From Escherichia coli (GTDB lineage Bacteria > Pseudomonadota > Gammaproteobacteria > Enterobacterales > Enterobacteriaceae), in NCBI RefSeq assembly GCF_003991155.1, contig NZ_CP031293.1: a DNA stretch of 64,000 nucleotides. The stretch is one strand, 5' to 3'. A program made the position numbers. This document shows positions 36,001-39,000 of the stretch, piece after piece. Each line of letters opens with the position of its first letter. Position 1 is the stretch's first letter.

Positions 36001-39000
36001 CGTCAGTCCGGAGACGACAGTCGGGTTATCTCAGAGTGCCTGAGATATTGCCTGGTTGGAGATCACTTCAGGGACTCTGCGCATTTTTTACGGCGTGGTT
36101 AATCCGTATGAACGAAACCATACGGAGATTTAACCATGACCTACAAATACAACCCCTTCTGGCAGCAACGTATTCGTGAGACGGTGCGGCACGCACTGGA
36201 TGTTCATCCCCGTCTGACGGCATTGCGGGTTGATCTGCGTCTCCCGGATGTACCGGCAGCAACGGACGCGGCTGTGATATCCCGCTTCATCAATGCCCTG
36301 AAAGCCCGAATCGACGCTTACCAGAAACGTAAGCATCGGGAAGGTAAACGCGTGCATTCCTCGACCCTGCATTACGCCTGGGCCCGGGAGTTCGGGGAGC
36401 TTAAAGGCAAAAAACACTATCACCTGCTGCTGCTGGTCAACCGGGATACCTGGTGTCGTGCCGGCGATTACCGCGCTCCGGGGTCACTGGCCGGAATGAT
36501 TAAACAGGCGTGGTGCAGTGCCCTGGGAGTGGATGTCGGGTGCCATGCCACGCTGGTGCATTTTCCGGCCTGGCCGGCGGTGTGGCTGGAACGCGATGAT
36601 GATGCTGGTTTACGGGATATGCTGAAGCGTGCTGACTATCTCGCGAAAGAGTACACCAAAGTCAACGGTACCGGTGAGCGCAATTTTGGCTGTAGCCGGA
36701 GTTGAGCACGACTGGCGCGCCAATATCCGGCAAACCAAAAGTATGGGTTGTTGTCTGGCGGCAACGATGTATCCACTCGCCCACTGACTGTTTTTTACGT
36801 CAGTGTTCCATTGTGTGACAACCACAGTGCTGTAACAGCAACCAGCCTGCTTTACCCAAACTCCAGTCCAGATTTTAACTGAACCGCCATTCACACCCTG
36901 ACCACGCTGCCCGTACCGGGACGGCTGTTGCCTGCGTGTCGTCTGACGGTAAGGAACATATACTATGTACGCAAAATCCTTTCTCGCTCTTGATAGCAAC
37001 GGACGTCTGACGGGCGCCCGTACTGCACAGGCCGCACCTTATGCTCACTACACCTGCCACTTGTGTGGCAGTGCACTCAGATACCATCCGCAATACGACA
37101 CTGAACTTCCCTGGTTTGAACACACTGACGACAGGCTGACAGAGCACGGTCAACAGTGCCCTTATGTCAGGCCGGAGCGCAGAGAAATACAGTTGATTAA
37201 ACGTCTGCAGCAATTCGTACCGGATGCCTTACCCGTGGTGCGTAAAGCCAGCTGGCACTGCAGACAATGTCACCACGATTATTATGGGGAGCAGTACTGC
37301 ACAAACTGCCAGACCGGAGGATTCAGTATTCCCCGGACAACTCAGGAGGAAATATGCGAATTCTGAACTGTTATATGGCGAATGACAGCAAAGGCCATTT
37401 TGTTACGGCGAAAGAAGCTGCGAAGCACAACCGACAGGACGTTTTGTGCTGTGTGTCCTGTGGATGCCCGTTAACACTTCAGCGGGGCAATGACGGACAA
37501 CCACCGTGGTTTGAACATGACCAGATGACTGTCGCTGAAAAAATCCTGCTGCGATGTACCTGGCTTGACCCGGCAGAGAAAGAGGCCCGTCGTTTGCATC
37601 TGCAGGGCATGACGGTTCCGGATTATACGGTGAAGGTGAGAAAGTGGTTTTGTGTGATGTGTGACGAAGATTATGAGGGGGAAAAGTGCTGCCCACGCTG
37701 CGGTACCGGGGTATACAGCAGGGCGTGGGGGCGGCAGGAGGTGCCGTCGGAAGATGCCAGGGCTGATAATCCGTTACAGAGGCTGTAATGGTTGCCTCCG
37801 GAGCAGTTTGCGGTAATGCCGTTCCCGGGAATGGATTGCCAGTGCGGGGACTGTGGAGCTTAATTCCGGTGTTGGTGGCCTTTCCGTTGATTTTGAGCCA
37901 ACAGCCCTCCTGTGACTGACAGGCTGCCTCGTCATTCCATTCGTATCTCCAGTAACAGGGGGTTGTATTGTATTTTAATGTGCCGGTTCAGGCGTGCGTT
38001 TCCCGGCGCGTCTGCACCGGCTTAACCAAATTCAACAGGGATAAAATAGTGTAAATAACCGAAGTATTACTTGAAGAATCGGGGGAAGCATCCGGGGTTT
38101 TATTCAACAGGCATGGGAGGCTCCGGCTCTGACAGACATTGTACTGTGGAATGTTGTTACAGGTTGGGGCGGCAACCGTGCCAGGAGACCATGAGCCGTT
38201 CACGGCATTAAAGGCCACACTTCAGTCGTTTACATTCCCTGTGGTGGCAGGCATCTTCCGTTAAGGCGTCAGAGCGTTACCAACGTTATGTTGTCATGGC
38301 TCACCTTTCATAGTCGATGCTTATCTGGTGACTGAAACTAGCCGCAGATAAAGAGTGTGAAGTTGATACCATGGAGTGGAGTGACGTGCAGGCAGGAGAT
38401 TCGCTCTATGCAGGGTTGTGAGATGAATTCAAACCGGCTGTCAGCGCCAGTAATATTTGAAGATTCGTCCGGTTGTTATCCAGTGTGCATTAAAAACCCA
38501 GACATTATGGACAATACAACGGCTTCCATAACAGGGAGGAGCCTGTTTATTATCCGGGCGTAATGACTAACCTTTGTGGGCTTTTTCCCGTCGTGCTTTT
38601 AACGTTGAAGGCATTTTCTGCCTGCCGATTCAGGACAGCGACAAAAGCCATATCAGACTATTGGTCAATGATGACCAGCGTCTGGAGTAGATGATAAGCC
38701 AAATTGATAAACTGGAATATGTGATGAAAGTGCAACGTAATCAGTCCAATCCGACGATGTTTAACAAGAGTACGGTGTTTTTTCAGTAAGTCATTCGTCT
38801 TCTGAATCAGGTGTAATGATCTTTACAGAAGCATTCCGGCAGTGCGTAACATAATCTGCCGGTAACGGACGCTCGCTAATCAGAACATCAAATGCAGAGA
38901 GCGGTGCGAGGCTGGCAGAGGCTACTTCATCGAACAAGGCGTGGCGGGCGAGCAAAATTTTCCTTAGTCCACGGGCCATCGCTTTACGCTTAGTGGCAAG

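What the first reader, a model, noticed from the sequence alone, without database searches (positions are those of the whole stretch)
36965..37788. Tandem paralogous Cys-rich (double zinc-ribbon-like) proteins: candidate uncharacterised two-gene module
Two adjacent genes encode proteins of 133 and 144 aa with the same unusual layout: an N-terminal CxxC followed by PWFEH, and a C-terminal WxCxxC…Y-E-GE-x-C-x2-C-G-TG. Each has its own strong Shine-Dalgarno and the second start overlaps the first stop by 13 nt, so they are probably co-translated. They sit just downstream of a Gp2-like gene in an integrative-element backbone, a position where CP4-57-type elements carry variable cargo including defence or addiction modules. 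I could not assign them to any characterised family from memory.
Basis: partly seen in the sequence, partly recalled or inferred. Interest (0 to 1): 0.7.

Follow-up and report, generated by a model that had tools for sequence, protein, structure and literature searches.

The report
Paired zinc-ribbon genes beside island nickase
These are two real, related zinc-binding protein genes of a catalogued but unstudied family, found in about 70% of complete E. coli genomes; they always sit beside the Gp2-like nickase gene of CP4-57-type genomic islands, so they look like helpers of island replication or transfer rather than a defence or addiction module.

Summary
Gene A is 36965-37366 (133 aa) and gene B is 37354-37788 (144 aa). 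They overlap by 13 nt and are paralogues (32% identity, E 3e-16).

Both are Pfam DUF7828 + Zn_ribbon_11, a small family seen only in Enterobacterales, with no published function and no PDB fold match. Conserved residues predict two zinc sites, CCHC and CCCC. Both genes are under purifying selection (dN/dS 0.1-0.3).

The pair is common: 3786 of 5426 complete E. coli genomes carry it, at up to 7 places per genome.

It is island backbone, not variable cargo. In all 15 independent lineages examined, the zinc-ribbon (ZR) gene(s) end a block containing a Gp2-like HUH gene, often with AlpA. Variable cargo and the integrase follow directly.

- Copy number runs from 1 to 4.
- The A clade always has a partner ZR gene and carries a conserved about 80-nt upstream element with a hairpin.
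- In Serratia, a ZR is fused to a Gp2 paralogue that lacks both catalytic motifs. In Hafnia, Yokenella and Superficieibacter such a paralogue follows B.

Best reading, inferred and not shown: these are zinc-binding partners or regulators of the island's Gp2-like nickase module. I found no support for defence or toxin-antitoxin.

The parts
36136..36705 (+). Gp2-like (YagK/YfjJ family) HUH-type gene, first gene of the block
   Evidence: Pfam YagK_YfjJ_C E 5e-45 and REP_ORF2-G2P E 8e-5; phrog_25019 E 1e-39. It keeps the HYH motif and the Y-L-A-K-E tyrosine motif, both conserved in all first-copy homologues aligned. No promoter-like or terminator-like site was predicted between it and gene A.
36876..36958 (+). 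Conserved non-coding element 5' of gene A. The core hairpin CTGCCCGTACCGGGACGGCTG lies at 36907-36927 and is followed by GCCTGCGTGTCGTCTG and the Shine-Dalgarno sequence.
   Evidence: 85-92% nt identity to the Hafnia, Superficieibacter and Yokenella loci, although protein A is only about 60% identical there and dS is saturated. Found once per locus and only upstream of A-type genes. Unique in the window, with 0 matches in 100 shuffles. RNAalifold gives an 8-bp hairpin that is almost invariant, with 1 compensatory pair. The RNA folding energy is not unusual, z -0.4. No Rfam match.
36965..37366 (+). ZR-A: 133-aa DUF7828 + Zn_ribbon_11 protein, a member of the 'A clade' (MYAKSF...)
   Evidence: Pfam DUF7828 E 3.5e-31 and Zn_ribbon_11 E 3e-9. 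In the A clade of the NJ tree. dN/dS 0.15-0.28. RefSeq WP_001531948.1.
37354..37788 (+). ZR-B: 144-aa DUF7828 + Zn_ribbon_11 protein. It overlaps A by 13 nt. The C-terminal tail (about residues 125-144) is not conserved.
   Evidence: Pfam DUF7828 E 9e-31 and Zn_ribbon_11 E 1.7e-18. AF2 model mean pLDDT 89, with the tail at 63-64. dN/dS 0.10-0.26. RefSeq WP_001221615.1.
37945..37963 (+). Weak terminator-like hairpin downstream of B; a possible end of the Gp2-A-B transcript
   Evidence: Consensus scan only: 6 terminator-like sites in the region against 3.5 expected from shuffles. Not tested further.

Best explanation
A and B are small proteins with two zinc sites. The N-domain has a CCHC site (CxxC...F-x-H...C) and the C-terminus has a CxxC-x9-CxxC ribbon. 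They form the last part of a Gp2-A-B operon in the backbone of a CP4-57-type integrative island. I propose that they act as zinc-binding partner or regulatory subunits of the island's Gp2-like HUH nickase module, which would start rolling-circle replication and/or transfer of the excised island. The A-type protein would work together with a second ZR protein, here B, probably as a hetero-oligomer. Their role would be to target or restrain the nickase, possibly at the conserved hairpin-containing element just upstream of A. Shown here: family membership, predicted metal-ligand conservation, purifying selection, invariant linkage to Gp2-like genes, fusion to a Gp2 paralogue lacking both catalytic motifs, and the conserved upstream element. 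Inferred, not shown: zinc binding, A-B and ZR-Gp2 contacts, any DNA binding, any nicking activity of Gp2, and any effect on island replication or transfer.
For: (1) Linkage. In 15 independent lineages (the E. coli types W/L001/L026 and L025, plus Serratia, Hafnia, Superficieibacter, Yokenella, Lelliottia and metagenomic Enterobacterales), ZR genes lie co-directionally 3' of a Gp2-like gene, usually with AlpA in the same block. (2) Rosetta-stone fusion. P0183 and a conserved Serratia family (P0195-P0199, 45-52% identical over 466 aa) fuse DUF7828 + Zn_ribbon_11 to a roughly 300-aa domain homologous to the neighbouring Gp2-like protein (E 3e-23). An unfused version, P0200, also exists. (3) In L006-L008 a divergent Gp2 paralogue starts at the end of B. 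It and the fused domain lack both the HUH motif and the Tyr motif, which all first-copy Gp2 proteins keep. (4) The A clade is never alone: 9 of 9 lineages have another ZR gene adjacent, whereas other clades occur singly. The A-B start/stop overlap recurs in other loci. (5) Invariant or nearly invariant C33, C36, F53, H55, C68, C100, C103, C113 and C116 across 39 diverse members; confident AF2 model. (6) dN/dS is 0.1-0.3 for both genes. (7) The element 5' of A is conserved more strongly than the coding DNA. (8) The neighbouring genes have a replication flavour: YfjI/DUF3987, and RepB-RCR_reg-like proteins encoded divergently.
Against: There is no experimental datum for any member of the family or for the island Gp2-like proteins. 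The proteins are near neutral in charge (median pI 7.6), so they are not obviously nucleic-acid binders. Gp2-like genes work without ZR genes in K-12 CP4-57 (yfjJ), where none was found; the Pseudomonas islands of the preprint read carry Gp2-like and AlpA genes, and that paper has no mention of a zinc ribbon, though I did not test them for ZR genes. So ZR is at most an accessory. The fusion partner lacks both catalytic motifs, which fits a regulator or competitor as well as it fits a cofactor. The upstream element shows almost no covariation and no unusual folding energy, and it travels with the A gene rather than with Gp2, so it may simply be a promoter or operator. Linkage alone cannot separate 'works with Gp2' from 'is co-regulated with Gp2'.
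Confidence: 0.4

Rival explanations
1. A and B are zinc-finger transcription regulators of the island, functionally like the Ogr/Delta activators of P2/P4. They would be co-expressed with AlpA/Gp2, bind RNA polymerase or an operator such as the conserved element upstream of A, and control the integrase, the cargo or their own operon.
For: They lie in the same co-directional block as the activator AlpA in many loci. They are the last backbone genes before cargo and integrase. The conserved upstream element could be an operator. A weak profile match to RPB9, the RNA polymerase II subunit with two zinc ribbons, was found at E 0.008. The P2/P4 analogy comes from my own knowledge.
Against: The Pfam scans listed no Ogr_Delta or other DNA-binding or transcription-factor family among their hits. 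The fold searches did not recover RPB9, TFIIS or any other structure. The fusion to a Gp2-like domain is not explained by this idea. The proteins are near neutral in charge.
Confidence: 0.2
2. The pair is a conflict module: an anti-phage defence, anti-defence or addiction (toxin-antitoxin-like) module.
For: The layout is two small, overlapping, co-translated genes on a mobile element, next to the cargo hotspot that holds AbpAB/RnlAB in K-12, type I restriction-modification genes, and SMEK_N/CTD10-MC6-DUF2326 genes elsewhere; BREX genes abut the truncated 3' end of B in one strain. Tandem duplication, decay and recombinant alleles are reminiscent of fast-evolving conflict genes.
Against: There is no significant PADLOC match; the best is E 0.063. 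The position is fixed in the backbone while the cargo beyond it varies. The two genes are paralogues, unlike toxin/antitoxin pairs. Single-copy loci are common. dN/dS is 0.1-0.3, not diversifying. The family is absent from 50,697 phage records.
Confidence: 0.12
3. The genes are decaying remnants with no current function.
For: Many database entries are truncated. Decayed ZR copies occur in L017, L020 and L022. The DNA just downstream of B in this window is a deletion scar.
Against: dN/dS is 0.1-0.3 across genera. The predicted metal ligands are invariant. PGAP annotates CDS products in all 40 sampled E. coli rows. Order and overlap are conserved across genera.
Confidence: 0.03

Closest known systems
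Pfam DUF7828 (PF25165) + Zn_ribbon_11 (PF11682, formerly DUF3279); the PGAP 'putative zinc ribbon protein'
   Same: Both proteins match both models strongly. The sequences are RefSeq WP_001531948.1 and WP_001221615.1.
   Different: Nothing differs. This is membership of a catalogued family with no known function, so it names the proteins but does not explain them.
Zinc-binding domain joined to an HUH nuclease domain, as in IS91-family transposases (recalled from my own knowledge, not tested here)
   Same: A Cys-rich zinc module is associated with an HUH-type protein. In Serratia the ZR module is fused N-terminally to a Gp2-like domain.
   Different: In this window the zinc module is a separate, duplicated protein. 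The fused Gp2-like domain lacks the HUH and Tyr motifs. No sequence or fold similarity to the IS91 zinc-binding domain was tested or found.
CoiA competence nuclease, N-terminal C2H2-type zinc-finger motif (Pfam CoiA_N; bioRxiv 10.1101/2024.02.06.579203)
   Same: The motif is similar: CxxC, about 15 residues, an aromatic residue, F/x, H. B and P0183 give weak Pfam hits to CoiA_N, E 0.39 and 0.1.
   Different: The hits are not significant. No nuclease family was among the Pfam hits of these 133-144-aa proteins, and I made no motif or catalytic-residue search for a PD-(D/E)XK domain. The fourth ligand here is Cys, and a second zinc ribbon follows.
Ogr/Delta zinc-finger late-gene activators of P2/P4-type elements (own knowledge)
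   Same: Small Cys4 zinc proteins of P4-related elements; P4 Delta is itself a tandem duplication.
   Different: No Ogr_Delta match was listed in the Pfam scans. The cysteine spacing, length and domain layout all differ.
Filamentous-phage gene II / gene X pair (own knowledge)
   Same: A replication nickase is accompanied by a non-catalytic relative that modulates it. That parallels active Gp2 plus the motif-less Gp2' copy, with or without a fused ZR.
   Different: Gene X is an internal translation product of gene II and has no zinc ribbon. The island Gp2-like proteins are only distantly related to phage G2P (E 8e-5).

Membership tests
Pfam DUF7828 (PF25165) | Significant match to the family HMM over its full length | tested here: met
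   A: E 3.5e-31, model positions 1-87 of 87. B: E 9.3e-31, model positions 2-86 of 87.
Pfam Zn_ribbon_11 (PF11682) | Significant HMM match, and the CxxC-x9-CxxC ribbon conserved | tested here: met
   A: E 3e-9. B: E 1.7e-18. C100 is invariant, and C103, C113 and C116 are at least 90% conserved, in 39 sequences.
Zinc-binding protein (two sites) | Metal actually bound by the CCHC and CCCC ligand sets | not testable with these tools
   Only ligand conservation and a confident AF2 model are available. Metal analysis of purified protein is needed.
CoiA competence protein family | Significant CoiA_N match plus a PD-(D/E)XK nuclease domain | tested here: not met
   CoiA_N hits are only E 0.39 for B and 0.1 for P0183. 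No nuclease family was among the Pfam hits of either protein.
Type II toxin-antitoxin or addiction module | Two unrelated partners (toxin and antitoxin) that are obligately paired and match known TA families | tested here: not met
   The partners are paralogues. Single-copy loci exist. No TA family appears in the Pfam, NCBIfam or PADLOC results.
Known anti-phage defence systems (PADLOC-DB v2) | Significant match to a defence-protein model | tested here: not met
   Best hit is PDC-S64 at E 0.063 for B; none for A or Gp2.
Variable island cargo | Presence and position vary between otherwise related islands | tested here: not met
   The position 3' of Gp2/AlpA is the same in 15 lineages, while the genes beyond it differ: ars genes, type I restriction-modification, T6SS, metabolic genes or IS elements.
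RPB9/TFIIS-type RNA polymerase zinc-ribbon factors | Sequence and fold similarity to the two-ribbon subunit | tested here: not met
Accessory subunit of a Gp2-like HUH nickase (proposed, not an established family) | Physical or functional dependence on the Gp2-like protein | tested here: inconclusive
   Linkage is invariant and a fusion to a Gp2 paralogue exists. No interaction or activity could be tested. Gp2 genes without ZR also exist.

The most novel reading that the evidence does not exclude
Gp2, ZR-A, ZR-B and the conserved hairpin element together form the self-encoded initiation module of CP4-57-type islands: a nickase, zinc-ribbon specificity or regulatory subunits, and an ori/oriT-like site. 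That would explain how these very common carriers of virulence and defence cargo, which have no conjugation or packaging genes, replicate after excision or get mobilised. It would also define a new class of zinc-ribbon partners for HUH enzymes with a fold not seen in the PDB.
Probability: 0.15. Interest if true: 0.7.

Novelty: new variant of a known kind. Interest (0 to 1): 0.38.

Why it matters
CP4-57-type islands inserted at tRNA genes such as pheV carry much of the virulence, metabolic and anti-phage cargo of E. coli and its relatives. How they replicate or move after excision is poorly understood. This family sits in about 70% of complete E. coli genomes, often in several copies. It is always tied to the islands' Gp2-like nickase gene and has no solved structural relative. 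Working out its role would annotate thousands of 'zinc ribbon' genes. It could also identify the control or targeting component of the island's replication or transfer module. As it stands, though, the finding is a common, already catalogued DUF pair, not a new system.

Tried and rejected
- NCBIfam, PADLOC and PHROGs gave nothing significant for A or B.
- The first AF2 run, on a shallow alignment, was poor (pLDDT 64.5) and was not used.
- The RPB9 similarity (E 0.008) was rejected as a family assignment because no fold search supports it.
- The UniProt names 'DNA-directed RNA polymerase beta subunit' and 'Competence protein' seen in AFDB appear to be unsupported automatic labels.
- The genome-contig scan with the broad alignment failed for lack of a conserved stretch. 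The narrower alignment returned only 7 loci.
- Literature searches for the Pfam names, the PGAP names and Gp2/YfjJ/YagK found nothing on function.
- No repeats or inverted repeats of note were found in 35900-38800. No Rfam family matched. No promoter-like site was predicted.
- I looked for a fourth gene, the Gp2 paralogue, downstream of B in the window and in other E. coli loci. It is absent.
- K-12 CP4-44 and CP4-57 contain no ZR gene.
- The three IMG/VR contigs holding the hairpin motif carry segments 84-98% identical to this island region; I did not examine what else they carry, so they give no usable evidence of packaging.
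Full report
**1. What is there**

The window holds two overlapping ORFs on the + strand. A is 36965-37366 (133 aa) and B is 37354-37788 (144 aa). B's ATG lies 13 nt before A's stop codon. Each start is preceded by a good Shine-Dalgarno sequence.

The two proteins are paralogues: 32% identity over 125 residues, E 3e-16. Both have the same Pfam architecture, DUF7828 (E about 1e-31) followed by Zn_ribbon_11 (E 3e-9 for A, 2e-18 for B). 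The upstream gene 36136-36705 is a YagK/YfjJ ('inovirus Gp2') family protein.

**2. How common it is, and what is known**

The Gp2-A-B stretch occurs in 3806 of 5426 complete E. coli genomes, and the A-B pair in 3786, at up to 7 places per genome. It is almost always chromosomal. PGAP calls the products 'putative zinc ribbon protein' and 'zinc-ribbon domain-containing protein'.

The family is small:
- 262 clusters at 50% identity among 1.84 billion representative proteins.
- Almost every named relative found is from Enterobacterales; the few exceptions are short or partial records that are 97-99% identical to the E. coli protein.
- It is rare on plasmids, 28 of 72,556 records.
- It is absent from 50,697 phage records.

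NCBIfam, PADLOC and PHROGs give nothing significant. Full-text searches for the family names and for Gp2/YfjJ/YagK found no functional study.

**3. The proteins**

An alignment of 39 diverse members has invariant C33, C36, F53, H55 and C100. C68, W98, C103, G109, C113 and C116 are nearly invariant (numbering of B). This predicts two zinc sites:
- a CCHC site in the N-domain (CxxC ... WF-x-H ... C);
- a CxxC-x9-CxxC ribbon at the C-terminus.

With this alignment AlphaFold2 gives a confident model (mean pLDDT 89): a small beta-rich N-domain, a linker helix and a C-terminal ribbon. The tail after residue 125 is poorly predicted and not conserved.

The proteins are near neutral in charge. Both genes are under purifying selection, with dN/dS of 0.10-0.28 in unsaturated comparisons. 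They are functional genes, not remnants.

**4. Context: backbone, not cargo**

I examined 15 independent lineages:
- two E. coli island types;
- Serratia, Hafnia, Superficieibacter, Yokenella and Lelliottia;
- several metagenomic Enterobacterales.

In all of them the ZR gene or genes lie at the 3' end of a co-directional block that contains a Gp2-like gene. That gene belongs either to the YagK_YfjJ_C/phrog_25019 type or to the related phrog_7120 type. AlpA is usually in the same block.

Immediately beyond the ZR genes the content varies: an ars operon, type I restriction-modification genes, SMEK_N/CTD10-MC6-DUF2326 genes, T6SS genes, metabolic genes or IS elements. Where the contig reaches far enough, the integrase and tRNA gene follow.

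On the other side, transcribed divergently, are the usual CP4-57-type backbone genes:
- a RepB-RCR_reg-like protein;
- a YeeP-like GTPase;
- DUF932;
- an antirestriction protein;
- RadC;
- CbeA/CbtA.

The ZR genes themselves, however, are the last backbone genes. K-12 CP4-57 has the Gp2-like yfjJ followed directly by the AbpAB and RnlAB cargo with no ZR gene, so ZR is an accessory, not a universal partner of Gp2.

**5. Is it a two-gene module?**

Copy number ranges from 1 to 4, and decayed copies occur in some loci. A neighbour-joining tree shows a distinct A clade (MYAKSF...). In all 9 lineages that carry an A-type gene, another ZR gene is adjacent. The partner comes from at least three different clades. 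Non-A types occur alone in L009, L014, L018 and L023.

Start/stop overlap between the two genes recurs in other loci. The pair is therefore a real, recurrent arrangement for the A clade. That is consistent with a hetero-oligomer, but it is not a property of the whole family.

**6. Link to Gp2-like proteins**

Three observations go beyond simple adjacency.

- **Fusion.** P0183 and a conserved Serratia family (45-52% identical over 466 aa) are fusions of DUF7828 + Zn_ribbon_11 to a roughly 300-aa domain. That domain is homologous to the neighbouring Gp2-like protein (E 3e-23). An unfused form of the domain also exists.
- **A second Gp2 copy.** In Hafnia, Superficieibacter and Yokenella, a divergent Gp2 paralogue begins at the end of the B-type gene.
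- **Lost catalytic motifs.** All first-copy Gp2 proteins keep the HUH motif (HYH) and the Y-[LM]-[AS]-K-E tyrosine motif. The second copies and the fused domain have lost both.

This pattern suggests that ZR proteins work physically with Gp2-type domains, in a regulatory or targeting role rather than a catalytic one. The E. coli island in this window lacks the second Gp2 copy.

**7. A conserved non-coding element**

The roughly 80 nt before A (36876-36958) are 85-92% identical between E. coli and the Hafnia, Superficieibacter and Yokenella loci. The A coding sequence there has saturated synonymous divergence and only about 60% protein identity.

The core is the hairpin CTGCCCGTACCGGGACGGCTG (36907-36927), followed by GCCTGCGTGTCGTCTG. 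It occurs once per locus and only upstream of A-type genes. It is unique in the window.

It shows almost no covariation and no unusual RNA stability (z -0.4). Nothing in Rfam matches. It could be an operator or leader, or a DNA hairpin with an adjacent nick site for the HUH protein. I could not discriminate between these.

**8. Most likely mechanism**

The best-supported reading (confidence about 0.4) is that A and B are zinc-binding partner or regulatory subunits of the island's Gp2-like nickase module. That module would serve rolling-circle replication and/or mobilisation of the excised island. A would act together with a second ZR protein.

- Shown: family membership, ligand conservation, purifying selection, invariant linkage, the fusion, the loss of catalytic motifs in the fused or adjacent Gp2 copy, and the conserved 5' element.
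- Inferred: zinc binding, protein contacts, DNA binding, Gp2 nicking activity, and any phenotype.

Rivals:
- island transcription regulators in the style of Ogr/Delta (0.2);
- decaying remnants (0.03).

The remaining probability is 'something else'.

**9. Comparison with what is known, and novelty**

Membership of Pfam DUF7828 and Zn_ribbon_11 was tested and met. Membership of CoiA, toxin-antitoxin families, PADLOC defence families and RPB9/TFIIS was tested and not met; Ogr/Delta simply did not appear among the Pfam hits.

The nearest functional analogies come from my own knowledge and were not tested:
- the zinc-binding domain attached to HUH transposases of the IS91 family;
- the gene II / gene X pair of filamentous phages.

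The genes are already catalogued and extremely common, so the finding is not a new system. What is new here is the evidence tying the family to the Gp2-like module, the rule that the A clade always has a partner, and the conserved upstream element. I rate it a new variant of a known kind (a zinc-ribbon accessory to a mobile-element initiator), of moderate interest.

Noticed in passing
window 36876-36958 (hairpin at 36907-36927): The non-coding element 5' of gene A is conserved across genera more strongly than the adjacent coding sequence: 85-92% nt identity to the Hafnia, Yokenella and Superficieibacter loci. It is found only upstream of A-type zinc-ribbon genes. Its role is unknown; it could be an operator or leader, or an ori/oriT-like hairpin with a nick site.
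   Followed up: partly
window 37704-37788; L027 6001-6085 (E. coli PK-F-10132): The last 85 nt of gene B, including its stop codon, form the 3' end of an annotated BREX pglX CDS in another strain, and the same downstream DNA follows. This looks like a deletion or recombination scar that fused pglX to the tail of B at this cargo junction.
   Followed up: partly
window 37789-38790: The roughly 1 kb after B has no intact gene. In the identical strain, PGAP marks an acetolactate-synthase small-subunit/ACT-domain pseudogene at about 38563-38789. The deoxyribose-type cluster (DeoR regulator, ribokinase-like kinase, fucP-like permease, aldose epimerase) follows. No integrase or tRNA gene lies anywhere in the window, so the island is a mosaic that has lost its integrase end here.
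   Followed up: partly
L006 6405-7058, L007 6405-7058, L008 6315-7037; P0183 and P0195-P0199 (Serratia): Relatives carry a second Gp2 paralogue that has lost both the HUH and the Tyr motifs. It lies directly after the B-type gene, or is fused to a zinc-ribbon protein in Serratia. It is absent from the E. coli islands examined.
   Followed up: yes
database proteins P0033, P0038, P0041, P0047, P0052, P0040: A graded series of chimeric zinc-ribbon proteins exists. One ZR type supplies the N-terminus and B or A supplies the C-terminus, with different crossover points, one of them at the shared WFEH motif. This suggests recombination between paralogous copies, or possibly assembly chimeras.
   Followed up: no
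window 49003-50775 and 50788-60654: A 590-aa ORF is followed by a 3288-aa ORF. The large one has a filamentous-haemagglutinin N-terminal domain (TIGR01901, E 3e-17) and FHA-type repeats. This is probably a two-partner secretion adhesin or CdiA-like locus.
   Followed up: partly
window 35250-35390: A short (46-aa) Hha/YmoA-family ORF matches only residues 28-71 of Hha (E 1e-20, below the curated cut-off). It lies between the AlpA-like HTH gene and Gp2. A full-length hha sits at the same position in another strain, L029.
   Followed up: no
L026 3456-5415 (E. coli 5CRE51): An IS110-family element is inserted exactly between A and B. Both ORFs remain intact, which shows the pair can be uncoupled transcriptionally without immediate decay.
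   Followed up: no
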